A DNA stretch of 64,000 bases from a virus (lineage: Duplodnaviria; Caudoviricetes). Position 1 is the stretch's first letter. Every line of letters starts with the position of its first letter. Shown piece by piece: positions 1-64,000 of the stretch. The notes beneath the pieces are model-generated. The model worked only from the letters and a program-made list of their open reading frames with translations, was not told the DNA's origin and did not search any database. Made by a program: the position numbers and the translations under genes. The stretch is taken from IMG/VR virus record IMGVR_UViG_3300035515_000417, positions 1 through 64,000 of that record; one strand, written 5' to 3'.

Positions 1-1086
1 ATGAAAATTAAAACAATTGAGCAGAGGGGTCCAGACACACATCAACGACCACACCTACAATTACATTTACAATTACTGGACTACATACTATTAACAAATG
101 ATTATAACATAGAGGATGAAATTAATATCAAAGAAATAATATTGAGAACAATATTAGATATAGTAAGTTACATCCTAATAGGTATAATAATTATGGTAAT
201 AATGTCACTTGTAAAAATAGACGATACACCAGTTTCAGTAATCAGTGATGATAGTTTAATAGATAACACACTTCCAGTAATAACGGAACAATCGGTCACT
301 CCTATTACTAGTAGAAGTGCAAGAGATACAGATGAAATAGAAGAAAATGCAGTAAATGGTGATACACTAGAGCATCTTAGTAACATTGAAGGTTTAAACA
401 TAAGTGATAGTGAGTCCAAGTGGATACAAGAGAAATTAACCACCCAGCTCAACTATATAAATCAAAATAACATATCAGAAAATAATATACAGTTAATAAT
501 TAATAATAAGAAAACCGTTCAACTTCCAGTAACAGGAAAGGACTTAACAAAATCAGGATTGATTGATACAAGAAGGACAGAAATACCTAGTTACAGTGAG
601 CAATATACAGAGGTAAGAAGACCTAATAATAGTATAAGTACAGATGAAATACAAATCTGTTATAAGAATAACACCAGTATTCCAAGAGACAGAGAAGAGT
701 GTACAGTAACAAGTTTAACAATACAAAATAACTTGATAAGTTTAGACCTGTCAGACACCTTGAATACATTAGAGCTCACAGAGGGACATCCTAAAATAGA
801 AATAGGTAACACCAAAGAGTATATACTAAACACCCTAGAAAATACAGACATACACTATATAATAAAAGAAAATATAAATAATGAGGTAGGAACATGGGAA
901 ATTATTATTGAAACCAAAGATGTAGATAGTACATCAGTTTCAGATAATACAAATAACTTCCCAGACATAACATTATATATAATAAGCCTAACAGGTAAAG
1001 AAACTGGTCTGAATACAATAAGAATTTACATCAAGCAGACAGACATAAATGAATTGCATAGGATATACCAGAATATAATGAATTAA
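1..1086 (+). CDS. Hypothetical membrane-anchored protein (possibly 5'-truncated)
   Basis: 361-aa ORF starting at the window edge; one hydrophobic segment (ILDIVSYILIGIIIMVIMSLV) followed by a Thr/Asn/Ile-rich region; no family recognised. Confidence 0.6.
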   Translation: MKIKTIEQRGPDTHQRPHLQLHLQLLDYILLTNDYNIEDEINIKEIILRTILDIVSYILIGIIIMVIMSLVKIDDTPVSVISDDSLIDNTLPVITEQSVTPITSRSARDTDEIEENAVNGDTLEHLSNIEGLNISDSESKWIQEKLTTQLNYINQNNISENNIQLIINNKKTVQLPVTGKDLTKSGLIDTRRTEIPSYSEQYTEVRRPNNSISTDEIQICYKNNTSIPRDREECTVTSLTIQNNLISLDLSDTLNTLELTEGHPKIEIGNTKEYILNTLENTDIHYIIKENINNEVGTWEIIIETKDVDSTSVSDNTNNFPDITLYIISLTGKETGLNTIRIYIKQTDINELHRIYQNIMN

Positions 1087-1096
1087 GACATTGTAC

Positions 1097-1125
1097 TTGA
1101 CAAAATAGAGTTTATATGATATAAT
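1097..1125 (+). promoter_or_regulatory. Consensus sigma-A promoter with extended -10
   Basis: TTGACA (1097-1102), 17-bp spacer, TGn-TATAAT (1120-1125), upstream of the XRE gene. Confidence 0.85.
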
Positions 1126-1219
1126 AAGTATATAGATTGATATAAATAATAAACTCTAATCAAAGAAAGGTATACTTAAGATAAAATAGAATTAATTTGA
1201 AAGAGAGGAGATTAAATCA

Positions 1220-1525
1220 ATGTCAGACAGCAAGAGCATGAAGCAAAAGGTTAGAGATTTATTAAGTAAGTATGGACAGAATCAGAATGATTTGGCTCAA
1301 ATACTTGGTTTAACATATCAATCTGTTAGTATTAAATTAAATGGGCATAAAGACTTTACACAGAGTGAAATATACAGAATCATGGTTTTGTACAGACTTA
1401 CTCCAGAAGAAGTAGTTGACATATTTTTCACTAGGGAAGAATCAAGAAAAATAGAGATTACAGTTGATAAGTCTAAAATACCACAGAATTTAAAAGGTTC
1501 ACAGGGTGTAGAAGTCACAGCCTAG
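1220..1525 (+). CDS. XRE/Cro-family helix-turn-helix regulator
   Basis: LLSKYGQNQNDLAQILGLTYQSVSIKLNGHKDFTQSEI...LTPEEVVDIFF is a typical Cro/XRE pattern; RBS GAGGAG. Confidence 0.85.
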   Translation: MSDSKSMKQKVRDLLSKYGQNQNDLAQILGLTYQSVSIKLNGHKDFTQSEIYRIMVLYRLTPEEVVDIFFTREESRKIEITVDKSKIPQNLKGSQGVEVTA

Positions 1526-1550
1526 GTAATAAGAAAGGGATTGTGAGATA

Positions 1551-2135
1551 ATGAAAAAGAATAAAGAAATGAACACCAAAACGCAGATGATTAACATAGA
1601 TTTACCAGAGGAACAGCTTAGAGAACAATTTGGATTTACAGATGAGGAAATAGAATTACGAAATAAATTATTAGAGGACTGTAAGGAATTAGAGAATTTG
1701 CACAGTTTGGTTGAGGGTGAATGGGAGACCCTACAGGAAGATGCACTAAAGTTTGACCAGTTAAAATCCAAGGTAAACAGTAGCATGTTAGACTTACAGA
1801 ACAAAATAAATCAGAGTAGAAATAAAAATTATGCACCAGTGATGCAGTCAGACCAGGACACAAACACCAATGAGGATGCTGGTATGGTGTATCACCAGTT
1901 TACATTGGTGTTTGGGCATAAGAGCGTAAGTTTTGTTTTGAGTAATATGAACGTCAAGAGATTAAAGAAATCAATTTCATTGATGAGTATTACAATGCTG
2001 TACATAGTAGGTAATAAACTGTTGGGTGTGGATATAACAGGATTGTATCTTTTGAACCTGTTAATAGGCGTGGCACTGGCTTGTGATTTATCACAATTGA
2101 CAATAGGTATTATTGAGATACTCAGACAAAGATAG
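1551..2135 (+). CDS. Hypothetical coiled-coil protein with two C-terminal TM segments
   Basis: Heptad-rich N-terminal half, hydrophobic C-terminus; RBS GAAAGGG. Confidence 0.7.
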   Translation: MKKNKEMNTKTQMINIDLPEEQLREQFGFTDEEIELRNKLLEDCKELENLHSLVEGEWETLQEDALKFDQLKSKVNSSMLDLQNKINQSRNKNYAPVMQSDQDTNTNEDAGMVYHQFTLVFGHKSVSFVLSNMNVKRLKKSISLMSITMLYIVGNKLLGVDITGLYLLNLLIGVALACDLSQLTIGIIEILRQR

Positions 2136-17807: not shown

Positions 17808-17808
17808 T

Positions 17809-17871: not shown

Positions 17872-19296
17872 ATGGAAAATGAAGATAGAAGCAGTTGGTA
17901 TAACAAGTACAGACCTAAGACATTGGAAGAATACTCAGGTAGAGCAATAAAAGACATTGTAGAAAAGAGATTTACAAAAAGGGCAAATATGCCACAAGTA
18001 ACATTTATTCAAGGTACAAGAGGTTGTGGTAAGACCACATTGAGTAGAATTTTGTCTAAGTATTATTTATGCCAGAACTTTACAGAGGAAGGACCTTGCG
18101 GACATTGTGAAATGTGTCAGGCTATAGATGAAATATTGATAAGTGCTGAAAATTTTGGTGTAGAGTGTCCTGGTGTTACAGAGTTAGCAGCTGATAGGTT
18201 TAATACTAAAGAGGCAGTACAAGAGGTACTTGAGGATGCAATGCAGGTGCCAATTTATACAGAATATAAGGTATTAATTATAGACGAGGTGCATGAATTA
18301 TCTAAGTCAGCTCAGACCAGTATGCTAAAGATACTTGAGGAACCACCAAAACATCTTATAGTAATAATGGCTACCACTAATCCTGAACAGGTATTGAACA
18401 CTATATTAAGTAGATGTCAATTAATACTAACTGCTAAAAAGCAGACAATAGCAGATATGACTGATAGGTTACTTACTATAAGTGAGAAAGAGGGATTAAC
18501 TGTAAGTAGAGAAGCTCTTGAAGTAATATCAAAAGCTGGCGGACGAGTACCAAGGGACTGTATAAAATTACTTGAGTCAATTGCAAAGACATATGGAGAT
18601 GAAGTAACAGTTGATATAGTAAAGGAATATGTAGGTACAACATCCTCTGATATGTATATGCAGTATTTTAAGGCAGCTAACAGTTCTCTTGCAGATATAC
18701 TTGAATTTGTAAAACTTGTGCAGGACAAAGATACAAATTTGGCAGAGTTTGTAGACGGACTCATGGAATTTGTAGTAGATGCAATGTATATAAAGTTTGG
18801 TATAGCCTATGATGAATATACTACAGATTTTATAAAGAGCATTAAGGAATTGTTTTCAATGTATGATTCAAGTGAATTTGACACATTGATGCAAATAATA
18901 GAATACCTTACAAATCATATAACAAAGGATAGGGATAATAGAAATACAATGTTATTAATAACTACTGCAATGAGAATAGGTAAGATAAACTTATTAGCAA
19001 ATGGACTTGCATCTGAACAATCAGAGGCAGTAGCAGAAAACAAGATTTCAGTTTATGAGCATAGTAAGATGTTGCAGAGCAATAATAGCGAAATTATTGA
19101 GCAGACCAAAATAAATTTGGACCTTGAAATGATAAAGGATGAGTTTAAGGATTCTTCACAGGTAATTGATACTGGAAACTTGTTAGATAATGTTGAGATA
19201 CCTTATATAGATTTGGATTCAGATATAGAACCAGAGGAGGAACAGAGTAAAGTTAAGAGCCTAGGTAGTGAGGTAGACGAGTTCTTTAAGGACTAA
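17872..19296 (+). CDS. dnaX: DNA polymerase III subunit gamma/tau (clamp-loader ATPase)
   Basis: WYNKYRPKTL, Walker A GTRGCGKTT, C...PCGHCEMC zinc site, IIDEVHEL, LLKILEEPP-like MLKILEEPP, SRC motif. Confidence 0.93.
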   Translation: MENEDRSSWYNKYRPKTLEEYSGRAIKDIVEKRFTKRANMPQVTFIQGTRGCGKTTLSRILSKYYLCQNFTEEGPCGHCEMCQAIDEILISAENFGVECPGVTELAADRFNTKEAVQEVLEDAMQVPIYTEYKVLIIDEVHELSKSAQTSMLKILEEPPKHLIVIMATTNPEQVLNTILSRCQLILTAKKQTIADMTDRLLTISEKEGLTVSREALEVISKAGGRVPRDCIKLLESIAKTYGDEVTVDIVKEYVGTTSSDMYMQYFKAANSSLADILEFVKLVQDKDTNLAEFVDGLMEFVVDAMYIKFGIAYDEYTTDFIKSIKELFSMYDSSEFDTLMQIIEYLTNHITKDRDNRNTMLLITTAMRIGKINLLANGLASEQSEAVAENKISVYEHSKMLQSNNSEIIEQTKINLDLEMIKDEFKDSSQVIDTGNLLDNVEIPYIDLDSDIEPEEEQSKVKSLGSEVDEFFKD

Positions 19297-20782: not shown

Positions 20783-21196
20783 ATGTCAAGAATGAGTATT
20801 CAAGATAGATACGATGAAATATGTAAATTATCAGGTTTGTCTGAAGATGTAGTGCGTAGAGTGTTTAAGGCTACAAAACAGAGTATGGCAAAATCATTGA
20901 GACAAGGTGAGCCGAGCACTGTACCTGGTATAGTAACAATAACACCAGAAGTAAGACAAAAGTTAAGTATAGGTGGTCAAAGTTTAACAAGATATATACG
21001 TTTGAAAGCTAAAGCTTCATCTGCTTTAGAGTCTGAAATATCCAAGTTAGATAACTTTGAATCTGATAGTGATACATTGACAGAGGAAGAGTATGAGGCT
21101 GAGATACAGGCTAAGTTGTTTTTGAAAGACCCCGAACTTAATGCACCTGAGAAACCAAAAGGAATACGTGTGTCACAAATTAATGCATTATTATAA
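20783..21196 (+). CDS. HU/IHF-like DNA-binding protein with acidic C-terminal extension
   Basis: EICKLSGLSEDVVRRVFKA...LRQGEPSTVPGIVTI...YIRLKAKASSALESEI follows the HU fold pattern. Confidence 0.6.
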   Translation: MSRMSIQDRYDEICKLSGLSEDVVRRVFKATKQSMAKSLRQGEPSTVPGIVTITPEVRQKLSIGGQSLTRYIRLKAKASSALESEISKLDNFESDSDTLTEEEYEAEIQAKLFLKDPELNAPEKPKGIRVSQINALL

Positions 21197-22647: not shown

Positions 22648-22681
22648 TGAGAGTAACTAGCAAAACTAAGGAGGTTAACAT

Positions 22682-25862: not shown

Positions 25863-25896
25863 ACATTAAGGAACATTGAGGAAAGGAAAAATAAAT

Positions 25897-38940: not shown

Positions 38941-39096
38941 ATGTATATTTTATTATTTATGTTCATAGCAATTGTGGTTTATATAAAGACATTTAAGGAA
39001 AATTTTAATGAGGAAAATATACAGAAAATAGTACCAGAGTTGTTTGCTGCTGGCGTAATAATTGTAGTATTACTAATATTAAGTGCAATATCATAG
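38941..39096 (+). CDS. Small 2-TM protein (51 aa, not in ORF track)
   Basis: MYILLFMFIAIVVYIKTFKENFNEENIQKIVPELFAAGVIIVVLLILSAIS; upstream GGTGAGG. Confidence 0.65.
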   Translation: MYILLFMFIAIVVYIKTFKENFNEENIQKIVPELFAAGVIIVVLLILSAIS

Positions 39097-43099: not shown

Positions 43100-44483
43100 T
43101 TTAGAGGATATGCAGATAGGATGTGTACATGTAGACAGTTATGATACAAAGAGTTTGTGGAATTGTACATGTAAATGTGGAAAGAAAATAAAAGTAAAGA
43201 CATTTAATTTAAAAGAGGCAATCAGACTAAATAAGAATTATGCATGTGAAGAATGTAGTGCAGAGTTAAGAAGAAATGATATTACAGGTAAACAGATAAA
43301 TGACTGGAAAATAATAGAATACGTAGGTGATGGATTTTACAAATGTCAGTGTAAGTGTGGTAAGGTATACAATATAAAAGGTAAGACAATCAAGAGTGGT
43401 AAATCAAAGTCATGTAGGGATTGTGGTTGTAAGAAAATGATACAGACCAGACTTGATAGATATGATGATATAGCTACCAATGTAAAGGAAAGGCGTACAG
43501 AGGAACAAGTAATAGCCTGTAGTAGTTCAGAGGATATGAGAGAGTTTATACTAAATAACTTTAATCATAAACCAAAAGCATTAGAAATATCAAGATTGTT
43601 AGGAATTTCAGAGTGTATGGCATTAAGAAAAATACACAAATTTGGTTTAGATGGATATATAGAGATAGATACTGGTTCAGTAATAGAAAGTGATGTGGTC
43701 AATTATATAAAAAGTATATACAATGGTAATATAATTGAGAGAGATAGAAAAGTATTGAGTGGTTCAGAGTTAGATATTTATATACCTGACAAAAATTTAG
43801 CTATAGAAGTAAATGGTGATTATTGGCATAGTAATATTTTTAAAAATACATATTATCACCAAATAAAATCACTGAAATGTTTAGAGGAACACATTCATCT
43901 GATACATATATTTGAGTATGAGTGGAAAAATAAGAATAAGAGGGATAAATTAGAAAGTTATATAGAGACAAAGCTGAGTGATAGTAATACATTAATAGAT
44001 ATAAATGACACACTAATAAAAGAAATAAACACTGATGAATTAAATAACTTTAGAAATAAATACGACATACATGAGTATCAAATACCAGATACAAGTATGA
44101 ATATAGGATGCTATTACAGTAATGAGTTAATAGGAATAATGACATTTAACAAAATAGATTCAACTAATAGGACCAGGTATAAAATACTTGCAAATTGTTG
44201 GAAACCACATATAGAAGTAAAGGCTGGACAGAGTAAATTATTTGAATACTTAACAAGAGAATATAGACCATCCTCAATAGTAGTTTATGTGGACTTAGCA
44301 AAGTTTACTGGAAACTCATATGTAGATGAATTAGGATTTAGAGAGATAGAGATAACAGAGCCAAATTACATATGGCTGAATAATCAGACATATGAAATAA
44401 TAGAGGATAATGAGATAAATAATGGATACTTAAAAATTTATAACTCAGGCAATCTAAAGTTAGAGTGGAAAGATAAAAAGTAG
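43083..44483 (+). CDS. Hef-like homing endonuclease, paralog 2
   Basis: ELDIYIPDKNLAIEVNGDYWHS; IHLIHIFEYEW; ELIGIMTF; SKLF...SIVVYVD; PNYIW; YLKIYNSG. Confidence 0.8.
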   Translation: MKPKFDLEDMQIGCVHVDSYDTKSLWNCTCKCGKKIKVKTFNLKEAIRLNKNYACEECSAELRRNDITGKQINDWKIIEYVGDGFYKCQCKCGKVYNIKGKTIKSGKSKSCRDCGCKKMIQTRLDRYDDIATNVKERRTEEQVIACSSSEDMREFILNNFNHKPKALEISRLLGISECMALRKIHKFGLDGYIEIDTGSVIESDVVNYIKSIYNGNIIERDRKVLSGSELDIYIPDKNLAIEVNGDYWHSNIFKNTYYHQIKSLKCLEEHIHLIHIFEYEWKNKNKRDKLESYIETKLSDSNTLIDINDTLIKEINTDELNNFRNKYDIHEYQIPDTSMNIGCYYSNELIGIMTFNKIDSTNRTRYKILANCWKPHIEVKAGQSKLFEYLTREYRPSSIVVYVDLAKFTGNSYVDELGFREIEITEPNYIWLNNQTYEIIEDNEINNGYLKIYNSGNLKLEWKDKK

Positions 44484-46425: not shown

Positions 46426-48699
46426 ATGAAAAAGAAAAAGGCACTAAAACTTATAGCATTGGTAACTGCAATGAGTTTATTAGGTACTGGATGTGGTTCA
46501 GTAGTTGGTGAAGATGTAGCTTCATACCAATTGGACTCACCACTTACAAGACAAGAGGTAATTGATTATTATGCAAAGGCATTAGACTATGATGCAGTAA
46601 TATCAAAGAATGTAACAGTACATGAAACTGAATATGTCACTCAAGATATAGAGGGAGAAAAGGCAGAAAGACTTAAATCATTGACAGAACAATGTGAAGC
46701 AATATTAGGTCAAAAGACTTATGAACTTACAGAGGATACAAAGAAGCTGGTATCCGAGGATACATTTAACTATATTAAGGTTACACTTGATAATGATACT
46801 TTGAGCAATGGTAAAATTCAGAGTATCACAGGTGCATTAGGATATTACTTTGTAGATGTAACATATGATGTAAGCCCAAGTGTGATAGGTCAGTTTAATA
46901 GCTTAGCAAGTTTCTCAGGAATAAATGGTATATACTATAGTCATTATGATGGTTCATATTCATTAGATGATTCATACGTTGAGTATATAGTAGAAAAGCT
47001 TAATGATTATTTTAATGAGAATAAGATATTAAAGAATGCTGTTTATAATGATGAGTCAAAGTTGTTTGAGATACAAGAGGGTGTCAAGCCAGATGTCAAG
47101 ACTAAAACAGTTGAAAATGTGTCCAACTTAACATCGGATGGTGATAACTATGAGGATGATTGGTTCACAGATGATTATACAACAACTACATCAGATGATA
47201 CTGAATACTTTGAGGGTGATGATGAGGTACTTAATCTTCCTGGTGATAGCAATGAAGATACAGAGGTGTCCACATTAGAGAATACAGAGCAGACAGATGA
47301 TACATTTGGTGGAAATGATTCAGCATCGGACTTAGATTTCTTAGTAGATAATGAGTCAGGTGATACAGATGATACCACTTCAACAACTTCATCAGATGCA
47401 AGTACAAGCAGTGAGAGTGGTTATAAATCATTAAAGAACACAGATTCCAACACAGATGCAATAGACCCAAGCAGACAGGTACAGTTTGATGCAGCTTTAG
47501 TAAATAAGGTAGCTGGTAGTTCAGTAAGACAGAGAGCTACAATACCAGATTTAGCCACAATATACTCAATACCAGAGCCACAGGGTGAAATAAGTGGATA
47601 CGGTATAGCAAATAGTGGTGGTGATGGAGTAAAGTACTTTGGATTGGACAGAGCAAATATGCAGGGTACAGCCACTTTGAGATATGTGTTTAAAGATGAT
47701 GTAAATGGAACAGGTGATATACTTGGTACTAACATTTACATGACAGAGGAAAACATTACAAATGGTATTACATCTTCAGATAATACAGTATTGTTACCAG
47801 AGTTCTTAAAGACGGAACTTGAGAAAGTGGTAGAAAGAGCAGACAGAGTAAATGCCAACTGTGACTTAGCGGGTATGTTAAGTGGTAGTATGTATCAGGA
47901 TTTAGGCGTTGGTGTCTTAAGAAGTTTTAAAGACCAGTCAACTGGTGTAAATAAATACATGTCAACTATAAGACAGATAATTGAAAGAAACACAACCTAT
48001 AATGTTTATTTACTTGAACTTGAGACAACTACGATAGAGGGACCAAGAGATGTTGATTGCTATGGTACTTACAAAGATAAAGGATACATGGTAATTCAGC
48101 AGCAAGGAAATGAATTTGTTATCATGGATTATATAAGAATAAGCAGGTCAATGATTAGTGAGCCACCTATTAATCCAGATTCTACAATTCAAAAGAGACT
48201 AGTAGCACTTAACTTAGCAGGTGAAATTCCAGAGGATAGTAAGGAAGAAATAACAAGCTTGATGAGTGACCTTTATACAGCTGGTACAAATAGATTGTTA
48301 AGAGGTCCAAAGGATATAACAGTTAAGGGTGAAACAATAACACTTGAGAAAGGTTTGTATGACTGTTTCCAAGATGACTCAGACATATTATCAACTACAG
48401 AACTTGAATATACAATGAGTAAGTTAACAAATGCATTAATTAAGCATGGTGCAGATGTAAGTTCAGTATATAGCGGTATAATATCTACATGGAATGGTGG
48501 ATATGATAATCAGGCAGAGTTCACTACGGAAGAGTTGATAACATATAATGGTAGAGATGATGCCTATTACATGGAAGTTTACTACTTAGTATCTAAGTTA
48601 AATGATAAGTGGGTAATTGATGAAAGAACAATCCTTGACGAGGAAGAAATCACAAATGCAGTAGATATACAGACTATCAAGGAAAGAGTTGGACAGTAA
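46426..48699 (+). CDS. Large lipoprotein, possibly with NTF2-like (TcpC/VirB8-like) domains
   Basis: Lipobox LGTG-C23; helix plus beta-strand modules ending in WVIDER / FVIMDY-like strands; acidic S/T/D linker. Fold call is weak inference. Confidence 0.65.
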   Translation: MKKKKALKLIALVTAMSLLGTGCGSVVGEDVASYQLDSPLTRQEVIDYYAKALDYDAVISKNVTVHETEYVTQDIEGEKAERLKSLTEQCEAILGQKTYELTEDTKKLVSEDTFNYIKVTLDNDTLSNGKIQSITGALGYYFVDVTYDVSPSVIGQFNSLASFSGINGIYYSHYDGSYSLDDSYVEYIVEKLNDYFNENKILKNAVYNDESKLFEIQEGVKPDVKTKTVENVSNLTSDGDNYEDDWFTDDYTTTTSDDTEYFEGDDEVLNLPGDSNEDTEVSTLENTEQTDDTFGGNDSASDLDFLVDNESGDTDDTTSTTSSDASTSSESGYKSLKNTDSNTDAIDPSRQVQFDAALVNKVAGSSVRQRATIPDLATIYSIPEPQGEISGYGIANSGGDGVKYFGLDRANMQGTATLRYVFKDDVNGTGDILGTNIYMTEENITNGITSSDNTVLLPEFLKTELEKVVERADRVNANCDLAGMLSGSMYQDLGVGVLRSFKDQSTGVNKYMSTIRQIIERNTTYNVYLLELETTTIEGPRDVDCYGTYKDKGYMVIQQQGNEFVIMDYIRISRSMISEPPINPDSTIQKRLVALNLAGEIPEDSKEEITSLMSDLYTAGTNRLLRGPKDITVKGETITLEKGLYDCFQDDSDILSTTELEYTMSKLTNALIKHGADVSSVYSGIISTWNGGYDNQAEFTTEELITYNGRDDAYYMEVYYLVSKLNDKWVIDERTILDEEEITNAVDIQTIKERVGQ

Positions 48700-48922: not shown

Positions 48923-50554
48923 ATGGCAGTGAGAAACCCTACAATGTGGCATGATATGTACATTGGACAAATGAGTGAGCCACAGGCAAAACTTATAATG
49001 CAGACAAGAGAATCCAAGGTGATACCAAACTTAAAGAAAATGATATTTAATTTTCCATATGAGCTAATAACAAAGAGCTTAGAGGAGGAAATAAGTATCA
49101 GAGAGATAATAAAGAGAGACAATATAGATTATACACAGTACATTGGAGAATTAAGAGATTATCAGACAGTAGGAACAGCTTTCATGTATTTAAGTCCAAG
49201 AAGCATAATAGCAGATGGTGTAGGATTGGGAAAAACAGCAGAAACAGCTGCATTGATAAACTATCTTAAGCAAAAGAATGAGATAACACGATTTTTAATG
49301 GCTGTTGAAACCAGTGCAATTGCCCAGACAGTGGCTGAAATAACTAGGTTTACTGGTTTAAGGGTGGTTGCAATGCCATCAGAGGCACCTAAGATTAAGA
49401 AAGTCATTGAGAAAACAGACTGGACAAAGGTGGATGGAATAGTAATAAAGCATAGTACATTAAGAAGTGACCCGTTCAGTAAATGGTTGGCTTTAAACTT
49501 AGACGAGCAGGGAAGGTGTAAGATATTTAATACATTTTTCTTGGATGAGAGTTCAGTAATTAAAAATCAGAATACAAAGATGTTTGATTATACAAAGAAT
49601 ATATGTCATATAGTAGAAAGAGTACATCTGATGAATGCAACTGCATTTGAAACTTCCATAATTGACATATATAACCAATGTGAAATGATGAACGAAGTGT
49701 TGATGCCAAAGAAATGGCGTATAGAACAAGCTTATTGTACATATCAAAATGTAAGTTACTGGACGAAAGATAAAACTACAGGTAAGGCAAAGATAAATTT
49801 CAAGAGGGATAGGTCAGGATACAAGAACCAGAAAGCCTTCAAGGATAGTTTGCAGTTGGTTTACTTTGGAAGATGCAAGAAAGACATAGGAATGGATATA
49901 CCACATGTGTATAAAGTATATGAGGTTGAACCAACAAATGAAATGTCATTGGCTTTGTCAAAAGGTTACAGATATAATGAATTATTAAATTGTCCATCAT
50001 TAATAGATGACCTTAACATATCAATGGATAGACAGAGTGTACCAAAGCTTAACAGACTGTGTGAACTGGTAGAGAATGAATTTGCAGATGAAAGCATAAT
50101 GGTTTATTGTTTCCACATAGAAGCACAGAAAGCCATAGCAGCTGAAATGGAAAAGATAGGAAGGAAACCAGTCATTCTAAATGGTAGTTGTACAGATGAT
50201 GAGAGATTTGAGGCACAGAGAGGATTTAATGAGGGAAAATATGACATAATAATAACCAACATTAAAAAGTCCTTAAATCTCTATGGAGGAAATGTATGTA
50301 TCTTCTATTCAATGGAGACTAACATAGCAAAAATGGAACAGATAAGGGGAAGGATAGATAGAAACGTGGATAATTCAATAAAGACTTTTGTAATGTTGTT
50401 ATACAAAGGTACAGATGAATATAACTTCTTCTCTACTGTAGTATGTCAGAGAGCAAAAGATGCCAGAGACCTTACAATAGATGCAGAAACAGCAGCAGAT
50501 TTCTTTAAACAAGCCTTAGAGGCAGATGAGCTTCAGGAATTAAAAGAAGTTTAG
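48923..50554 (+). CDS. SNF2-family helicase/translocase
   Basis: LRDYQ (Q motif), IADGVGLGKT, FLDESS, PKLNRL, LNL..., EQIRGRIDR. Confidence 0.88.
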   Translation: MAVRNPTMWHDMYIGQMSEPQAKLIMQTRESKVIPNLKKMIFNFPYELITKSLEEEISIREIIKRDNIDYTQYIGELRDYQTVGTAFMYLSPRSIIADGVGLGKTAETAALINYLKQKNEITRFLMAVETSAIAQTVAEITRFTGLRVVAMPSEAPKIKKVIEKTDWTKVDGIVIKHSTLRSDPFSKWLALNLDEQGRCKIFNTFFLDESSVIKNQNTKMFDYTKNICHIVERVHLMNATAFETSIIDIYNQCEMMNEVLMPKKWRIEQAYCTYQNVSYWTKDKTTGKAKINFKRDRSGYKNQKAFKDSLQLVYFGRCKKDIGMDIPHVYKVYEVEPTNEMSLALSKGYRYNELLNCPSLIDDLNISMDRQSVPKLNRLCELVENEFADESIMVYCFHIEAQKAIAAEMEKIGRKPVILNGSCTDDERFEAQRGFNEGKYDIIITNIKKSLNLYGGNVCIFYSMETNIAKMEQIRGRIDRNVDNSIKTFVMLLYKGTDEYNFFSTVVCQRAKDARDLTIDAETAADFFKQALEADELQELKEV

Positions 50555-50665: not shown

Positions 50666-51454
50666 ATGAAAAGAAAAGTAATAAGCTTAATAACAATATT
50701 GAGTATCAGTGCTAGTTTATTAGTTGGTTGTGGAAGTGCTACTAATGCGGACGGAACCACAGACATTAGTAAATTAAGTAAATCAGCTTTATTAGAGAAA
50801 TACAATGAGTTAGCAAATAATTACAATGGATTAAGTACACAGTACACTGAAATGTATAATATGTATCAGGCATTGACTACAGAGGAACAGCCAAGTTCAG
50901 CAATATCAGTGGTTGGTGATGGAACAGGTAGATACACCTTTAACTCAGTAGATGCTAAGATGATATTTCCATCAAGTTTCCAATACCCGTCAGCAGAGAC
51001 AATACAGTCAAATGGAAGTATTAACATAGTGCAGAATGTGCAGGTATCACCTGGAAGTAATTGGATATTTAAAATGAATGGAACTACATTGGAACTTGAA
51101 CATACCAGTGGTATATCAGGTACAATTAAAGCTTCAGGTGTTACAACTCAATATGATAAGACACAGTTGAAAGATGAGGTTTTGTCACAGTGGTTTGTAA
51201 ATGTGCCAGATGCAAAACCAGTATATAAGGATATATTTATTGACCAGACAATGTTTGGTGTACAGGCTACGACACCAATTATGATTGATAGTGAAAATGC
51301 ATTTTTAAGGTGTGGAATGCTAGCTTATGGTGATTATGCAATAACTTATGTGTTTGTTTACAGAGGTGAACAAGATGTAACAAAAGATGAGAGCATAACG
51401 AATGTATTAAATACAATAAAGATTATGGGGGCAGAGTTCCAAGTAGAGGACTAG
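50666..51454 (+). CDS. Lipoprotein with short coiled coil
   Basis: Lipobox LLVG-C22; RBS GAAAGGA/AAGGA. Confidence 0.8.
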   Translation: MKRKVISLITILSISASLLVGCGSATNADGTTDISKLSKSALLEKYNELANNYNGLSTQYTEMYNMYQALTTEEQPSSAISVVGDGTGRYTFNSVDAKMIFPSSFQYPSAETIQSNGSINIVQNVQVSPGSNWIFKMNGTTLELEHTSGISGTIKASGVTTQYDKTQLKDEVLSQWFVNVPDAKPVYKDIFIDQTMFGVQATTPIMIDSENAFLRCGMLAYGDYAITYVFVYRGEQDVTKDESITNVLNTIKIMGAEFQVED

Positions 51455-54723: not shown

Positions 54724-54773
54724 TTTAATTTTTTAATTTTAAGTTGGAATTTAGAAAGGTAGGACATTTAAAA

Positions 54774-56816
54774 ATGATGGAAAAAGATAATCGTAACATG
54801 CGAAGTCTTAAAGACGAGCAGCAGGTTAGACAGAGAGCAAATGTTATATTTGGTACAGTAGATATAAATGGTGCTTTCAAGTGTATTGACGAGATAGTAG
54901 CTAACTCTGTAGATGAGGCGACAGAGGGTTATGGTAAGGAAGTCAGGGTAACAGTAAGGAAGCCTAATGAAAGTGATATTAAATTAGGTGCAAAGAACAT
55001 AGGTGATGTAATTGAAATCTCTGATGATGGACGTGGCTTACCCATGGACTGGAATGAGGCAGAGCAGAAATATAACTGGGAACTCGCTTGTTGTACTCTA
55101 TATGCATCTGGAAAGTATGATAGTTCACAGTATTCTCAGTCAGTAGGATTGAATGGGCTTGGTTTGACAGCTACTCAGTATGCTTCATCTTTCATGGTAG
55201 TAGAATCTACATATGAGGGAAAAACAAGGTATATGAGATTTCAGTTAGGTAAGCCAGTAGGAAAAATGGTAACAGTTGATGCTGTGAGAGAAGGTTCAGG
55301 AACTACAATAAGATTTCAGACAGACTATGAGGTATTTCCATGTTTACAGTATGAACAGATAAGTATGGACAAGTATTTGAATTTGTTTAACAATCTGGCT
55401 ATGATAAATAAGGGATTGGTAATCAAGTTAAATCATTATGAGTTAAACACAGAAGCAGTGTTTTACTATGAGGGCGGAATAGTAGAGTTTATAGACAGAC
55501 TTCTTGAAGACCCTGAAATGACGGCTAAGCCAATGATACAAACCACTTCATTCTATGATACAATGTATGGCACAGATGATGCAGTGACAAATCCCGAACA
55601 GTACAAATTTGACCTTGAGTTAGCATTTAACTTCTGTAGGGACAAATCAATAGTGGGAATATATCATAATGGTTCACACTTGTTTGAGGGTGGTACTACA
55701 GCTGACGGATTTGAGCAAGGCATCACAATGGCTTTTAATCATGTATTAAAAGAGACAAATAAAATGGCAAAATCAGAAAGAGTTCTTTATAAAGATATAG
55801 AGCAAATGCTGTTATGTACACTCAGTACAAAATCTCCTGGATATCGTACAAATTTCAAGAGTCAGACAAAGAGTGCAGTAACGAATCCATGGATGGGAAA
55901 GGCTACAGCTTCATTTACATATGAGAAGTTTAGATACTGGCTTGAGAATAATAAGAATCTTGCTGATAAAGTATTGAACGAGGTTTTAATTAATAAGAAA
56001 GCTCGTGAGGATGGTGAGGCAGTAAGCAAGAAAGTAATTAAAAAGTTAAGTACAAATGTAAGTTTTACTAACAAGCCAAAGGGATTTGAGGACTGTGCTA
56101 CAAAGGACGTTTCAATAAGAGAGGTATATCTAGTAGAGGGACTTTCAGCTCTTGGTTCAGCAAAACAGGCTTGTGATAGTAACTTCCAAGCAGTAATGCC
56201 ACTTAGAGGTAAAATTATTAACAGTATAAAAGAAACCCCTGCACGAGTATTGAATAATGAGATAGTAGTAAATTTATTCAGAATACTTGGTTGTGGAATA
56301 GAGTTAAAGACAAAGTACCTTGAGGACCTTCCAAAATTCGACATAAACAAGTTGAAATGGAATAAAATCATCATATGTACTGATGCAGACGTAGATGGTT
56401 TTCATATAAGATGTTTAGCACTGGAGCTGTTTTATGTATTAGCACCATCCCTAATTAAAGAAGGTAAGGTGTTTATAGCAGAAACACCTCTGTATGAAAT
56501 GTCATACAAAGAGGATTACAAGTTTGCTTATGATGATAGTGAGTATGACTTAAATATGAAATACTTCACAGATACCTATGGAATTAATCCAACTAAAGTA
56601 GTAGTTAAGCGTTCTAAGGGACTTGGTGAGAACGATGCAGAAATGATGCATCGTTCAACAATGAATCCAGAATCACGTAGATTAATTAAAATACAGTATC
56701 CAGAAGATGACACACAGTTAAGAAGTCAGTTCAATGCTTTATTAGGTGATGACATTGAAACACGTAGAATGTTAATCAATGAATACTTTGATAAAATAGA
56801 TGCAGACCTTGAATAA
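54774..56816 (+). CDS. gyrB: Type IIA topoisomerase subunit B (GyrB/ParE)
   Basis: EIVANSVDE, DDGRGLP, ASGKYD, GLNGLG, TOPRIM EGLSA, PLRGK, TDADVDG, KGLGE; likely start ATG 54774. Confidence 0.93.
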   Translation: MMEKDNRNMRSLKDEQQVRQRANVIFGTVDINGAFKCIDEIVANSVDEATEGYGKEVRVTVRKPNESDIKLGAKNIGDVIEISDDGRGLPMDWNEAEQKYNWELACCTLYASGKYDSSQYSQSVGLNGLGLTATQYASSFMVVESTYEGKTRYMRFQLGKPVGKMVTVDAVREGSGTTIRFQTDYEVFPCLQYEQISMDKYLNLFNNLAMINKGLVIKLNHYELNTEAVFYYEGGIVEFIDRLLEDPEMTAKPMIQTTSFYDTMYGTDDAVTNPEQYKFDLELAFNFCRDKSIVGIYHNGSHLFEGGTTADGFEQGITMAFNHVLKETNKMAKSERVLYKDIEQMLLCTLSTKSPGYRTNFKSQTKSAVTNPWMGKATASFTYEKFRYWLENNKNLADKVLNEVLINKKAREDGEAVSKKVIKKLSTNVSFTNKPKGFEDCATKDVSIREVYLVEGLSALGSAKQACDSNFQAVMPLRGKIINSIKETPARVLNNEIVVNLFRILGCGIELKTKYLEDLPKFDINKLKWNKIIICTDADVDGFHIRCLALELFYVLAPSLIKEGKVFIAETPLYEMSYKEDYKFAYDDSEYDLNMKYFTDTYGINPTKVVVKRSKGLGENDAEMMHRSTMNPESRRLIKIQYPEDDTQLRSQFNALLGDDIETRRMLINEYFDKIDADLE

Positions 56817-62067: not shown

Positions 62068-62156
62068 AGTATGCAGAGAGTGACAGTAAATAAAGGCGTG
62101 CAGAGAAAGTTAAACTAGTAGGAAAATTAAAAGAACAAACATAAGGAGACATAAGC

Positions 62157-63734
62157 ATGTGGGATAGAGTAAATATACCACTTGGAGTAGAAAGTTCTAT
62201 AAGAAATATATTTAGTGCTCTGTTAGTTGGTGGAATAGATACAAACGACCCAAATAATGTACAATTGCTACAAGACAAAGTAACAATTGCTAAGATAGCA
62301 AGAGCAAGATTCACAGCAGAATTTGCATTTAATATATTTTATAACAATTATGCTATATTTTATGAAATACTGAATACTTTACAAGTTAAGGTATTCAGTG
62401 TGGAACAGCTGAAATCTATATTGGAAACAAATAGGGACTTGGTTCTTGATAGTCCATACATAGATAAAGCAAGATATAGTACCACAGAGACTGGTAACAT
62501 TGCTAGTGATGATGACATATTAAATGCAATAACAGCTTCATTAGAGGAAGACTTGGTAGAACTGTCAAATGTATTTGTAACAGAGGAACAATTTACTTCT
62601 GCTTGTAATATATACAAAGAGTGGTACAAGAAGGCTTTTGCAGAGTTTACTGCCTTGAACATGTCATCAATAATGTCAGACATAGGGTTTGATTGTAAGA
62701 AGCCCAATAGAAGGACAAGACACTATCAGGGTTTAAGTGACATGATGGAGTACTACAATGAAAATATAAAGATTATAAGGTCATTATCTGATGAGAACAG
62801 AATAAAAAGTACAGTGCTAGATGAAAAATGGTTATATGACCAGTTAAAAAATGAAACTACAAAGGATAAAAATGGATTATTTACCATTGGAATCAAGGAA
62901 ATGGACAGAACAATTGGTGAGTTACGTAGAGGAAATATATTAGGTGTCCTTGGACCACCAAAGGGTGGAAAAACAAGATTTACAAATTACCTTGTACAAA
63001 GAGCATTAAGCCTTGGATATAATGTATGTGTCTGGCCTCTTGAGGGTACACGAGAAGAATGGGAATCCACACAGATATCCTGTTTAATAGCCCAAAACTC
63101 ATACAATACCATGCGAAGAAAAGGCAAGAAAGATGGTATGATAAGAATTTCAAGCAAGGATATATTACAAAAGAAATACTTGAGTTCACCAGAGTTAAGA
63201 AAACAAGTAGCAGGTGCAAAAACTATAATGGCAACTAGTCCAGAATATGGAACATTAAGTTTTATAGATGGAACAGCTTATGTAGAGGACTTTATAGATG
63301 TATTAGAGAATCATTGGGAAACAGAAAATCCATTTGATGTATTGGTAATTGACCAGTTGATAAATGTAATGTCACATAAACCAATGAGTAGACCAGAGAA
63401 AATATCTGAAGCATACATTACATTAAAGGACTTCTTGGCAAATAGGCTTAAAATACCTGCTCTTGGAATAATGCCAGCTCAGCTAAAACAGACGGTCGTT
63501 GATTATATGAGGTCACATCCAGACGATACCATAGATGTTACTGCCGGAGGAGAGTCATCGGAAACGATTAGAACACCAGATGAGAGCATCGGACTCTTCA
63601 GTAGTAAGGAAGAGCGTGATAATAATATGATGAAGATTTATAGTGTGGCTTCAAGACATAATGGCTCTTTCCAAGATTTTCAATGTAAATGTTACTTAGA
63701 GTGTTGTTTCTTTACAAGTGCAGATGATGAATAA
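62157..63734 (+). CDS. dnaB: DnaB-like replicative helicase
   Basis: TIGIKEMDRTIGELRRG, Walker A LGPPKGGKT, WPLEG, LVIDQL, AQL. Confidence 0.8.
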   Translation: MWDRVNIPLGVESSIRNIFSALLVGGIDTNDPNNVQLLQDKVTIAKIARARFTAEFAFNIFYNNYAIFYEILNTLQVKVFSVEQLKSILETNRDLVLDSPYIDKARYSTTETGNIASDDDILNAITASLEEDLVELSNVFVTEEQFTSACNIYKEWYKKAFAEFTALNMSSIMSDIGFDCKKPNRRTRHYQGLSDMMEYYNENIKIIRSLSDENRIKSTVLDEKWLYDQLKNETTKDKNGLFTIGIKEMDRTIGELRRGNILGVLGPPKGGKTRFTNYLVQRALSLGYNVCVWPLEGTREEWESTQISCLIAQNSYNTMRRKGKKDGMIRISSKDILQKKYLSSPELRKQVAGAKTIMATSPEYGTLSFIDGTAYVEDFIDVLENHWETENPFDVLVIDQLINVMSHKPMSRPEKISEAYITLKDFLANRLKIPALGIMPAQLKQTVVDYMRSHPDDTIDVTAGGESSETIRTPDESIGLFSSKEERDNNMMKIYSVASRHNGSFQDFQCKCYLECCFFTSADDE

Positions 63735-63750
63735 CATTTGTAAATAATAA

Positions 63751-63786
63751 GTAATAGCAGTGATGAAACAATGACACTGCTATTAC
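63751..63786 (+). other. Perfect 12-bp inverted repeat after dnaB
   Basis: GTAATAGCAGTG-12 nt-CACTGCTATTAC, no U-tract. Confidence 0.6.
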
Positions 63787-63834
63787 AATATAAAATATAG
63801 GATTAGCAATTAAGAAAGGTGGTATAACATTGAC

Positions 63835-64000
63835 ATGAAACCAATGCCAAAAGAATTAAGAGATATGTTATGTGAGTTCTTCATTTGTGAAATAGGAGCT
63901 TCTGCAATGGATGGAGTCACATATACCATGATAATAAAAGATGAGAACAATAAGAAATCAATGGCAAACATAGAGAGATATAAGCAAATTAAGACAGAGG
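63835..64000 (+). CDS. Partial CDS running off the window
   Basis: ATG 63835, MKPMPKELRDMLCEFF..., upstream GAAAGGTGG; open to the end. Confidence 0.55.
   Translation, partial: MKPMPKELRDMLCEFFICEIGASAMDGVTYTMIIKDENNKKSMANIERYKQIKTE

What the first reader, a model, noticed from the sequence alone, without database searches (positions are those of the whole stretch)
1..64000. Giant element combining its own replisome genes with a conjugation-like apparatus
Seen: dnaX, a dnaB-like helicase, a DnaC-like loader, both type IIA topoisomerase subunits, HU-like and SNF2 genes, beside VirB4 and FtsK ATPases. All are co-oriented over 64 kb, most other genes are orphans, and there are no housekeeping operons or recognisable virion genes. 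The core genes are divergent and not in chromosomal synteny (no dnaA-dnaN-recF-gyrB-gyrA order). Inference: a self-replicating, self-transferring megaplasmid or phage-plasmid of a gut Clostridia-like host, possibly an uncharacterised lineage.
Basis: partly seen in the sequence, partly recalled or inferred. Interest (0 to 1): 0.7.

Follow-up and report, generated by a model that had tools for sequence, protein, structure and literature searches.

The report
Giant plasmid-like element misfiled as virus
The window is the conserved backbone of a giant (at least about 0.3 Mb), almost entirely one-stranded, plasmid-like DNA element from animal-gut Firmicutes that carries a DNA-transfer machine and replication helper genes but no detectable virus-particle genes. 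It resembles the recently described Inocle and Hodor megaplasmids but could not be placed in either.

Summary
The observation largely holds. 66 of 68 ORFs lie on one strand. DnaX, both type IIA topoisomerase subunits, SNF2 and an FtsK-type ATPase are solid. The "VirB4" is now confirmed by fold: AF2 pLDDT 88.5, best PDB match full-length TrwK/VirB4, E 7e-18. The DnaB-like call is weak. The HU-like and DnaC-like calls are not confirmed.

The window is 64 kb of an 88-kb IMG/VR "provirus" record. It is collinear with 250-kb and 268-kb relatives. Its VirB4 has hundreds of relatives on contigs up to 526-600 kb, mostly from what look like animal-gut samples. One relative's lineage stays co-oriented for at least 287 kb.

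About 765 kb of family sequence shows no terminase, capsid, portal, sheath, integrase, Rep_3, sortase, known relaxase or Pol III alpha. Relatives carry tRNA arrays and ROOL RNA, and between them tmRNA, a Ter stress cluster and McrBC. The window's own record has SmpB, IF3 and ClpB.

Best reading (0.6): a giant extrachromosomal, T4SS-bearing plasmid-like element of Bacillota, of the same kind as Inocles and Hodors but not shown to belong to either. Transfer is unproven because no relaxase was found. A huge phage with virion genes in the unsampled part is not excluded.

Other first-stage notes of this scan flagged similar transfer clusters in two other genomes.

The parts
1220..1525 (+). Cro/C1-type HTH regulator (DUF739/HTH_26)
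   Evidence: Pfam E 1.7e-7; ortholog in G001
17872..19296 (+). DnaX-like clamp-loader ATPase
   Evidence: PF13177 E 5.5e-30; 46% identical ortholog in G001
20783..21196 (+). Small conserved protein; the HU-like call is not confirmed
   Evidence: PF00216 E 0.0066, below the cut-off; no PDB match; conserved in G001
21214..21834 (+). YdjM-type membrane metal hydrolase. The same family as the metal-dependent hydrolase gene I take to be tcpI in the pCW3 tcp locus.
   Evidence: PF04307 E 2.4e-13; weak BLASTP of that pCW3 protein to the G002/G001 orthologs, E 1e-4
21850..23182 (+). Two small membrane proteins (265 aa and 166 aa, 2-4 TM segments)
   Evidence: Hydropathy scan; conserved in G001
23289..25862 (+). 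857-aa secreted protein with an N-terminal signal and two C-terminal TM segments
   Evidence: Hydropathy scan; no Pfam or PHROG hit; ortholog in G001
25876..30906 (+). 1676-aa polytopic membrane protein, candidate VirB6-like channel component
   Evidence: About 5 TM segments. The same gene order (giant protein, three ORFs, VirB4) holds in distant family members. Atlas gives only weak leads to TrbL/TraG_N/TrbL_3 clusters, 0.78-0.86.
31053..32483 (+). 476-aa protein with two N-terminal TM segments
   Evidence: 54% identical ortholog in G001
32517..35045 (+). 842-aa protein with a C-terminal ParA/MinD/CpaE-type P-loop domain
   Evidence: PF13614/PF10609/PF01656 E about 1e-6; same position in the 526-kb and 600-kb contigs
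35136..36575 (+). 479-aa conserved cytoplasmic partner directly upstream of VirB4
   Evidence: Conserved position in all loci examined
36592..38826 (+). VirB4-family T4SS ATPase
   Evidence: AF2 pLDDT 88.5. Foldseek top hits are TrwK/VirB4 of R388 over about 640 columns, E 7e-18, and T. pseudethanolicus VirB4, E 1e-12; HerA and TrwB rank lower. Pfam tally over 68 family members: DUF87 44, P-loop_TraG 17, AAA_10 14.
38941..39096 (+). 51-aa protein with two hydrophobic segments, candidate VirB3/TcpD-E-like partner
   Evidence: Translation; a 51-54 aa gene lies between VirB4 and the FtsK-type gene in every lineage where that gene was identified
39119..41464 (+). FtsK/SpoIIIE-type ATPase with two N-terminal TM segments, candidate coupling protein
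   Evidence: PF01580 E 4e-16; TM segments; PDB EccC/FtsK hits E 5e-8 to 1e-5
41477..44483 (+). Two paralogous HNH/homing-endonuclease-like genes directly downstream of the FtsK gene
   Evidence: PHROG 3339/559/374, E 1e-50 to 1e-21; a homolog sits at the same position in G001
46426..48699 (+). 757-aa secreted protein, probably a lipoprotein
   Evidence: Signal peptide ending in Cys; ortholog in G001
48923..50554 (+). SNF2-family helicase
   Evidence: PF00176 and PF00271; 63% identical in G001; also near VirB4 in a distant member
50666..51454 (+). 262-aa lipoprotein
   Evidence: Lipobox LVGC
54744..56816 (+). Type IIA topoisomerase subunit B (GyrB/ParE-like)
   Evidence: PF00204, PF00986, PF01751 and PF02518
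59758..62067 (+). Type IIA topoisomerase subunit A (GyrA/ParC-like); no C-terminal beta-pinwheel repeats were detected
   Evidence: PF00521 E 5e-115 was the only family hit; 31-36% identity to the best phage, plasmid and MAG-chromosome homologs
62157..63734 (+). Divergent DnaB-like helicase candidate
   Evidence: PF03796 E 8e-5, below the cut-off; PDB DnaB E 0.05; 50% identical in G001

Best explanation
The window is the conserved core of one member of a widespread, undescribed family of giant plasmid-like extrachromosomal elements of Bacillota, mostly from what appear to be animal, especially herbivore, guts.

Size and layout (shown): the G001 lineage is inferred to be at least about 346 kb, and family contigs reach 526-600 kb. 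Almost every gene points the same way.

Maintenance (inferred): the element probably uses the host's replicative polymerase. It supplies its own clamp loader, a DnaB-like helicase, a type IIA topoisomerase, SNF2, a degenerate LigA-like protein, and ParA-like and ParB-HNH proteins.

Envelope machine (VirB4 shown by fold, the rest inferred): a cluster of the Gram-positive type IV secretion kind. It contains VirB4, a small 2-TM protein, an FtsK-type coupling ATPase, a giant polytopic VirB6-like protein, lipoproteins and a YdjM hydrolase. It most likely moves the element's DNA, or other cargo, between cells.

Accessory load (shown by annotation): translation-rescue and stress genes. The window's record has SmpB, IF3, ClpB, MscS and MoxR-VWA. 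The two large relatives both carry tRNA arrays and ROOL RNA; tmRNA (G002) and the Ter cluster, McrBC and flotillin (G001 lineage) were each seen in one.

Virus-calling pipelines label it "provirus" because of virus-like accessory genes, not because it makes particles.
For: - Fold-level VirB4 next to an FtsK-type ATPase with 2 TM segments.
- The module giant membrane protein, three ORFs, VirB4 is conserved down to about 25% identity.
- 329 clusters at 50% identity belong to this VirB4 clade. Hundreds of close relatives sit on contigs up to 526-600 kb.
- The record is collinear with G001 and shares its core with G002.
- In G000-G004 (about 765 kb), direct family searches were negative for Terminase_6N and 6C, HK97 capsid, portal and sheath. 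Per-protein Pfam found no virion family in G000 or in G001 1-140 kb.
- No tyrosine or serine recombinase was found, so integration is unlikely.
- The "provirus" cut of G001 removed only about 19 kb of a 268,789-bp contig. The flank continues co-oriented with Eco57I, McrBC, flotillin, a Ter cluster and a P-type ATPase.
- Precedent: Inocles (PMC12340149) and Hodors (10.64898/2026.02.21.707213) are giant VirB4/VirD4 megaplasmids of Bacillota. The Hodor authors report that geNomad consistently classifies them as viral.
Against: - No relaxase was found with MOBP, MOBT/Rep_trans, MOBH or Replic_Relax. No plasmid initiator such as Rep_3 was found.
- No complete replicon was examined, so circularity, copy number and the content of the remaining roughly 150-250 kb are unknown.
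- Several features are also typical of huge phages: tRNA arrays, tmRNA/SmpB, IF3, ROOL RNA, many free-standing HNH and GIY-YIG endonucleases, ThyX, and similar contig lengths in diverged lineages (526,440, 526,267 and 525,681 bp; 268,789 and 268,054 bp).
- Pfam is insensitive to very divergent capsid and terminase genes. The PHROG scan of the non-core part of G002 showed only the top 25 of 137 matched families.
- The host link rests on the binning of a single MAG.
Confidence: 0.6

Rival explanations
1. It is part of a huge (0.3-0.6 Mb) tailed phage. The virion and packaging genes lie in the unsampled part of the genome or are too divergent for Pfam. The VirB4/FtsK cluster would serve some phage-specific envelope or DNA-handling role.
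For: - IMG/VR and geNomad call it viral, and CheckV gives completeness estimates.
- The nearest Atlas clusters are labelled Uroviricota.
- tRNA arrays, tmRNA and ROOL RNA. The literature describes ROOL as phage- and prophage-associated near tRNA islands (PMC5737381; 10.1101/2024.12.08.627333).
- SmpB and IF3, many homing endonucleases, and ThyX and RNase H.
- The best GyrA identities include Bacillus phages.
Against: - No TerL, MCP, portal or sheath in about 765 kb, nor in the 37 kb of annotated flank.
- The VirB4 protein has no tblastn match in 50,697 GenBank phage records.
- The gene content beyond the "provirus" cut is plasmid- or chromosome-like: a Ter cluster, a P-type ATPase, flotillin, McrBC.
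- The standard genetic code is used, unlike Lak megaphages (PMC8346664).
- The Hodor paper shows that the same kind of viral label was wrong for another VirB4-bearing group.
Confidence: 0.17
2. It is an integrated element, a giant ICE or genomic island, lying in a bacterial chromosome as the IMG/VR "provirus" flag implies. The 450-600 kb contigs would then be element plus host flank.
For: - G000, G001 and G003 carry the provirus flag.
- The G001 boundary lies at a tRNA cluster.
- The family has a VirB4 and coupling-ATPase pair, as ICEs of Firmicutes do.
Against: - No tyrosine or serine recombinase in G000-G004.
- The G001 cut removed only about 19 kb. The flank has the same strand, the same style of genes and no housekeeping operons.
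- G002 is a whole 268-kb contig with uniform skew and strand, and no host-like end.
- The family occurs in only one of 185,579 species-representative genomes, and there only on short contigs.
Confidence: 0.06
3. It is a secondary chromosome or chromid, or a fragment of a very reduced cellular genome.
For: Housekeeping-type genes are present: DnaX, GyrA/B, DnaB-like, IF3, SmpB, ClpB, MscS, and in relatives tmRNA, MetK and up to 27 tRNAs. Contigs of about 0.5 Mb exist.
Against: - Most genes are orphans.
- No rRNA was found in the parts scanned with Rfam: all of G000 and G002, and G001 1-140 kb. No ribosomal-protein or RNA-polymerase family appeared in the Pfam scans, which covered G000 and G001 1-140 kb.
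- Only 81 of 229 G001 ORFs have a homolog in G002, so content outside the core is highly fluid.
- The "housekeeping" genes are extremely divergent (31-36% for GyrA).
Confidence: 0.05

Closest known systems
Inocles: giant extrachromosomal elements of oral Streptococcus (Kiguchi et al., Nat Commun 2025, PMC12340149)
   Same: - Hundreds of kb, GC about 32%, and more than half of the genes unknown.
- VirB4 plus a coupling ATPase.
- Gyrase and DNA polymerase III-type genes, tRNAs, and cell-wall and stress genes.
- Genes oriented with the replichore.
- Not recognised by plasmid or phage databases.
   Different: - The Inocle marker InoC (Replic_Relax, PF13814) was not found in G000-G004.
- The apparent habitat is animal gut or cecum, and the only MAG link is to Lachnospiraceae, not oral Streptococcus.
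- Contigs reach 526-600 kb, against 245-395 kb for Inocles.
- No strand switch in at least 287 kb.
- Sequence homology to Inocle genomes could not be tested because those sequences are not in the tools.
Hodors: conjugative megaplasmids of human-gut Bacillota (bioRxiv 10.64898/2026.02.21.707213)
   Same: - Giant elements with VirB4, VirD4 and a cryptic VirB6.
- No common relaxase, and large surface or secreted proteins.
- Bacillota affinity.
- Consistently called viral by geNomad and stored in virus databases.
   Different: - Rep_3, sortases and the MOBH-type relaxase domain are absent here.
- GC is 30-39% rather than 45-47%.
- This family adds DnaX, a type IIA topoisomerase, a DnaB-like protein, tRNA arrays, ROOL RNA and SmpB, with tmRNA in one relative, plus near-total co-orientation.
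Gram-positive conjugation systems of the pCW3 Tcp / Tn916 / ICEBs1 type
   Same: - A VirB4-like ATPase with an FtsK-type coupling protein that has two N-terminal TM segments.
- Small 2-TM proteins, a polytopic VirB6-like protein, and a YdjM-family hydrolase like the pCW3 gene I take to be tcpI.
- An M23 peptidase next to VirB4 in a distant family member.
   Different: - No significant BLASTP or hhalign similarity to the proteins I take to be TcpA-H (the record names only tcpM and tcpD) beyond the Walker A motif.
- No relaxase was found.
- ParA/CpaE-like proteins are embedded in the cluster.
- The carrier is 5-10 times larger.
Lak and other huge phages (PMC8346664; PMC11165621)
   Same: Gut habitat, 0.45-0.66 Mb contigs, low GC, tRNAs and translation-related genes, and mostly orphan genes.
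   Different: - The standard code is used, with TAG as a stop.
- No capsid, terminase or portal.
- The VirB4 gene has no match in GenBank phage records.
- The affinity is to Bacillota, not Prevotella.

Membership tests
Type IV secretion / conjugation system | VirB4-family ATPase with N- and C-terminal domains | tested here: met
   AF2 model pLDDT 88.5. Foldseek best hits are full-length TrwK/VirB4, E 7e-18 over about 640 columns, ahead of HerA and TrwB.
Type IV secretion / conjugation system | Coupling protein (VirD4 or FtsK/TcpA type) with membrane anchor | tested here: met
   PF01580 E 4e-16 and two N-terminal TM segments. PDB similarity is only to the FtsK/EccC P-loop region, so the function is inferred.
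Type IV secretion / conjugation system | Relaxase and oriT, needed for conjugative DNA transfer | tested here: not met
   PF03432, PF02486, PF07514 and PF13814 are absent from G000-G004. No relaxase family appears in the per-protein Pfam scans. The records are incomplete, so absence is not proven.
Type IV secretion / conjugation system | VirB6-like polytopic channel protein | tested here: inconclusive
   The 1676-aa protein has about 5 TM segments. Atlas gives only leads of 0.78-0.86 to TrbL/TraG_N/TrbL_3 clusters. No fold was obtained because it exceeds 1200 aa.
Inocle | InoC marker gene (about 454 aa, N-terminal Replic_Relax PF13814) | tested here: not met
   No PF13814 match at E <= 0.01 in G000-G004. 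These records are fragments.
Inocle | Closed circle of 245-395 kb with ORF orientation switching at ori and ter | not testable with these tools
   No closed genome could be read. No switch was seen in 268 kb (G002) or in at least 287 kb (G001 lineage).
Inocle | Sequence homology to Inocle genomes | not testable with these tools
Hodor | Rep_3 initiator | tested here: not met
   PF01051 is absent from G000-G004.
Hodor | Multiple sortases and a sortase-anchored surface module | tested here: not met
   PF04203 is absent from G000-G004.
Hodor | MOBH-like HD relaxase | tested here: not met
   PF07514 is absent. The Hodor authors needed structure comparison to find theirs, so a cryptic homolog is not excluded.
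Tailed (huge) phage, Caudoviricetes | Large terminase subunit | tested here: not met
   PF03237 gave only sub-threshold P-loop matches inside the FtsK gene. PF17289 gave none.
Tailed (huge) phage, Caudoviricetes | HK97-fold major capsid, portal and tail sheath | tested here: not met
   PF05065, PF04860 and PF04984 gave no match in G000-G004. Sequence profiles only; no structure-based search of all orphans was possible.
ICE / prophage (integrated element) | Tyrosine or serine recombinase and host flanks | tested here: not met
   PF00589 and PF00239 are absent. The flank beyond the G001 "provirus" cut is more of the same element.
DNA gyrase, as opposed to topo IV or phage topo II | GyrA C-terminal beta-pinwheel repeats with GyrA box | tested here: not met
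   Only PF00521 (residues 26-463) matched in the 769-aa protein at E <= 0.01. The name "type IIA topoisomerase subunit A" is the safe one.

The most novel reading that the evidence does not exclude
A third, so far undescribed lineage of giant extrachromosomal elements of Bacillota, common in animal and ruminant guts. It may be the largest of the three, at 0.3-0.6 Mb. Practically every gene over hundreds of kilobases lies on one strand. A cryptic, relaxase-less T4SS is combined with an element-encoded translation-rescue kit: tRNA arrays, tmRNA with SmpB, and IF3. It also carries ROOL RNA at a conserved position, which makes this family one candidate source of the ROOL RNAs first found in rumen metagenomes.
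Probability: 0.45. Interest if true: 0.75.

Novelty: new variant of a known kind. Interest (0 to 1): 0.6.

Why it matters
If it holds, virus catalogues such as IMG/VR contain a whole family of giant non-viral replicons from animal guts, as the Hodor authors report for human-gut Hodors.

- These elements would add hundreds of kilobases of mobile stress, defence and cell-envelope genes to gut Firmicutes.
- They would give a defined genomic home and a conserved neighbourhood for ROOL RNA, whose function is unknown.
- They are an extreme case of strand co-orientation that could inform how very large plasmids replicate and are transcribed.
- The VirB4 gene is a ready marker for finding hosts and closed genomes.

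Tried and rejected
- Lak megaphage identity: rejected. The element uses the standard code with TAG as a stop, the VirB4 gene has no tblastn hit in GenBank phages, and Lak properties are as described in PMC8346664.
- Sequence-only proof of VirB4: failed. Profile A1 found nothing in the PDB, hhalign against the pCW3 protein I take to be TcpF aligned only the Walker A motif, and BLASTP against the proteins I take to be TcpA-I (the record names only tcpM and tcpD) found nothing significant beyond the weak metal-dependent-hydrolase match to the YdjM orthologs.
- First AF2 run on a shallow alignment: unusable, pLDDT 49.6. It was solved by building a deep alignment from the representative search.
- Finding the parent contig of the window: the scan of metagenome contigs with the window's first ORF found nothing. 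The G001 end query returned only distant GIY-YIG homologs.
- Extending past the G001 end through IMG/VR: two scans returned only G001 itself.
The other half of the largest genomes therefore remains unseen.
No read-level test of circularity, coverage or expression was done.
- PHROG scan of 137 non-core G002 proteins: 137 families matched but only the top 25 were listed, mostly HNH endonucleases and transposases. It says little about rarer families.

Full report
WHAT THE WINDOW IS. The window is bases 1-64000 of an 87,960-bp IMG/VR record flagged "provirus", with a CheckV completeness of 39%. I read the remaining 24 kb as well.

Of the 68 non-overlapping ORFs of 80 aa or more in the record, 66 lie on the + strand (binomial p 1.6e-17). 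GC is 0.30-0.35. GC skew is +0.2 to +0.33 in every 4-kb bin, and the + strand is 60% purine. The standard code gives a coding density of 0.92, with TAA, TAG and TGA all used as stops. The 88 kb contains no tRNA, rRNA or other Rfam family.

CHECK OF THE GENE CALLS. These calls are solid:
- DnaX-type clamp loader at 17872-19296 (PF13177, E 5.5e-30).
- GyrB-like at 54744-56816, with four domains.
- GyrA-like at 59758-62067 (PF00521, E 5e-115). No C-terminal pinwheel repeats were detected, so "type IIA topoisomerase" is the safe name.
- SNF2 at 48923-50554 and FtsK/SpoIIIE at 39119-41464.
- YdjM at 21214-21834 and a ParA/CpaE-like C-terminal domain in 32517-35045.

These calls are weak or unconfirmed:
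- DnaB-like at 62157-63734 is below the Pfam cut-off, with PDB DnaB at E 0.05.
- HU-like at 20783-21196 has E 0.0066 and no PDB match.
- No ORF matched a DnaC/IstB family.

Beyond the window, the record encodes the following:
- a degenerate LigA-like protein;
- ParB-HNH;
- IF3;
- a BspA-LRR protein;
- a DUF2201 zincin-VWA protein with a MoxR ATPase;
- SmpB (PDB E 8e-29);
- MscS;
- ClpB.

About 40 other ORFs have no Pfam hit. The ten large ones I tested have no PHROG hit, apart from two homing-endonuclease-like paralogs.

IS THE "VirB4" REAL? By sequence, the protein at 36592-38826 matches only DUF87/HerA (E 5e-8). A profile of close relatives found nothing in the PDB. hhalign against the pCW3 protein I take to be TcpF aligned only the Walker A motif.

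An exhaustive profile search found 329 clusters at 50% identity. A 97-sequence alignment of these gave an AlphaFold2 model with pLDDT 88.5. Foldseek places it first with full-length TrwK/VirB4 of the R388 T4SS (E 7e-18, about 640 aligned columns), then with VirB4 of Thermoanaerobacter pseudethanolicus. HerA, DndH and TrwB rank lower. Across 68 family members, Pfam hits are DUF87 (44), P-loop_TraG (17) and AAA_10 (14). The Atlas neighbours include Bacillota conjugative-transfer ATPase clusters. I take it as a divergent VirB4.

THE CLUSTER AROUND VirB4. The surrounding genes encode:
- small membrane proteins;
- an 857-aa secreted protein;
- a 1676-aa polytopic protein;
- a 2-TM protein;
- the ParA/CpaE-like protein;
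- a 479-aa partner directly upstream of VirB4;
- VirB4 itself;
- a 51-aa protein with two hydrophobic segments;
- the FtsK-type ATPase with two N-terminal TM segments;
- two HNH-like nucleases;
- secreted proteins, at least one a lipoprotein.

The order giant protein, three ORFs, VirB4 is kept in relatives with only about 25% VirB4 identity. In one of those an M23 peptidase follows VirB4. The 1676-aa protein gets only weak Atlas leads to TrbL/TraG_N/TrbL_3 (VirB6-type) clusters. The whole looks like a Gram-positive T4SS. It has no detectable sequence similarity to the pCW3 Tcp proteins, except between the metal-dependent hydrolase I take to be TcpI and the YdjM orthologs in G002 and G001.

THE FAMILY. 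The VirB4 protein has several hundred relatives at 60-85% identity. Many are on contigs of 450-600 kb: 526,440, 526,267, 525,681, 600,378, 487,341 and others. IMG/VR holds four further records:
- G001: 249,770 bp, flagged "provirus".
- G002: 268,054 bp, flagged "linear".
- G003: 133,586 bp.
- G004: 26,124 bp.

Among 185,579 species-representative genomes, only one MAG carries the gene, a Lachnospiraceae bacterium from water-deer cecum, and there only on short contigs.

The window's record is collinear with G001 positions 140-246 kb at 25-64% amino-acid identity, so the window is the conserved backbone. Outside this core the content is fluid: only 81 of 229 G001 ORFs have a homolog in G002. G001 has 218 of 229 ORFs on one strand. 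G002 has 256 of 260 on one strand, with a GC skew near +0.2 across nearly all of its 268 kb; one 10-kb bin holding a TnpB-like gene is near zero.

The "provirus" boundary is not a real end. The parent contig of G001 is 268,789 bp. The DNA beyond the cut continues on the same strand with:
- Eco57I and McrBC;
- NfeD and flotillin;
- UDG;
- an ATP-grasp / C-C lyase / PRTase / TRSP / PELOTA set;
- a serpin;
- vWA-TerF, TelA and three TerD genes;
- a P-type ATPase.

Contigs carrying identical proteins (297,767 bp and 112,760 bp) imply a genome of at least about 346 kb for that lineage, co-oriented for at least 287 kb.

PHAGE, PLASMID, ISLAND OR CELL?

Against a phage:
- Across G000-G004 (about 765 kb), direct searches found no Terminase_6N or 6C, HK97 capsid, portal or sheath.
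- Per-protein or batch Pfam scans of G000 and of G001 1-140 kb list no virion family.
- The VirB4 gene has no match in 50,697 GenBank phage records.

Against an integrated element:
- No tyrosine or serine recombinase was found, and no host flank was seen.

Against a cell or chromid:
- No rRNA was found in the parts scanned with Rfam (G000, G002 and G001 1-140 kb).
- The Pfam scans show no ribosomal-protein or RNA-polymerase genes, and most genes are orphans.
- The element's GyrA is 31% identical to the MAG's chromosomal GyrA, but 46-57% identical to element copies in that MAG.

For a plasmid-like element:
- The T4SS cluster, and ParA-like and ParB-HNH proteins.
- Cell-envelope genes in G001: three SLH proteins, LytR_cpsA_psr, YkuD, M23 and TraX.
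- The stress and defence cargo listed above.

What is missing for a textbook conjugative plasmid:
- No relaxase: MOBP, Rep_trans, MOBH and Replic_Relax are all absent.
- No recognised initiator: Rep_3 is absent.
- No Pol III alpha. A PolA-like gene is present in G001 and G002 but not in the window's record.

PHAGE-LIKE TRAITS THAT REMAIN.
- Relatives carry 18-27 tRNAs, all on the coding strand.
- G002 has a tmRNA.
- Both large relatives have ROOL RNA about 183-185 kb downstream of VirB4 and next to a tRNA: 288 bits in G002 and 358 bits in G001.
- ROOL is described as occurring in phages and prophages near tRNA islands (PMC5737381; 10.1101/2024.12.08.627333).
- There are many free-standing HNH and GIY-YIG genes.
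- Diverged lineages have strikingly similar contig lengths, about 526 kb three times and about 268 kb twice.

I could not read the rest of the 0.5-Mb contigs, so a virion module there is not excluded. I put this rival at 0.17.

COMPARISON WITH WHAT IS KNOWN. Two recently described groups are the closest kind.

Inocles (PMC12340149):
- They are 245-395 kb circles with GC about 32% in oral Streptococcus.
- They carry VirB4 and VirD4, gyrase and Pol III genes, and tRNAs.
- ORF orientation follows the replichores.
- Their marker is InoC, with a Replic_Relax domain.

Hodors (10.64898/2026.02.21.707213):
- They are 211-389 kb, with GC 45-47%, from the human gut.
- They encode Rep_3, ParABM, VirB4/B6/D4, a MOBH-like relaxase and sortases.
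- Their authors report that virus-calling pipelines, including geNomad, consistently classify them as viral.

The present family shares the general design and the same kind of misfiling. It fails the Hodor markers, and no InoC was found. It differs in habitat, in contig size and in near-total co-orientation. It also has a tRNA, SmpB and ROOL set, with tmRNA in one relative. Homology to Inocle sequences could not be tested.

VERDICT. It overstates the "own replisome" and the proof of self-transfer, and "phage-plasmid" has no support. I rate it a new variant of a known kind, with interest 0.6.

Other first-stage notes of this scan had flagged similar VirB4/FtsK/ParA-like clusters in two other genomes and several sub-features in this genome. 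I treated these as leads only.

Noticed in passing
L047:4756-5374 (G002:264756-265374, +) and L013:13651-14220 (G001, -): ROOL RNA (RF03087, 288 and 358 bits) occurs in both large relatives. It sits on the coding strand, next to a tRNA, about 183-185 kb downstream of VirB4. The position is conserved, which suggests that this element family is one candidate source of the rumen-derived ROOL RNAs.
   Followed up: partly
L003:1-456 (record 83001-83456), L002:7714-8238, L041:3831-4242 (G002): The window's record encodes SmpB (PDB E 8e-29) and IF3. The relative G002 encodes a tmRNA (126 bits) and 27 tRNAs. Together these form an element-borne translation-rescue set.
   Followed up: partly
L086, L090 and L091 (contigs of the G001 lineage, downstream of the IMG/VR provirus cut): A full Ter-type stress cluster, all co-oriented: ATP-grasp_Ter, C-C lyase, PRTase/TRSP, StiP/PELOTA, vWA-TerF, TelA and three TerD genes. 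It is accompanied by a P-type ATPase, a serpin, flotillin/NfeD, McrBC and Eco57I.
   Followed up: partly
ENA contigs behind L026 and L066, and P0043's longest contig; G002 and the parent contig of G001: Lineages whose VirB4 proteins are only 73-76% identical sit on longest contigs of almost the same length: 526,440, 526,267 and 525,681 bp. Two relatives from one metagenome, whose shared proteins average 41% identity, are 268,789 and 268,054 bp. This is unexplained. It could reflect constrained genome size, shared assembly breakpoints, or chance.
   Followed up: partly
window 53028-53966; record 71172-71633, 74449-77328, 77339-79558, 81582-82571: Several otherwise unrelated proteins start with a similar N-terminal module of roughly 70 aa, of the form hydrophobic strand ... 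(V/I)GY ... . Other first-stage notes also flagged it. Its function is unknown.
   Followed up: no
window 41477-43099 and 43083-44483; window 17250-17807: HNH/homing-endonuclease-like paralogs share an N-terminal Cys-rich motif. One sits directly downstream of the FtsK-type gene here and in G001. It is a candidate for a non-canonical nicking function, but nothing tests this.
   Followed up: no
L002:2198-3382 (record 66198-67382): A LigA-like adenylation-domain protein matches Pfam only weakly (E 9e-4, below the cut-off). Another first-stage note reports that its catalytic motifs are degenerate.
   Followed up: no
G002:30479-32059 and G001:241820-243160: A roughly 530-aa family A DNA polymerase domain protein is present in two relatives but not in the window's 88-kb record. 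In G002, a gene that looks by eye like TnpB (545 aa, not tested) sits next to it, in a 10-kb bin with GC skew near zero.
   Followed up: partly
L034:5489-5556 and L040:17928-18064 (G002): A RAGATH-18 RNA (70 bits) and a group II intron domain (47 bits) occur in the relative G002.
   Followed up: no
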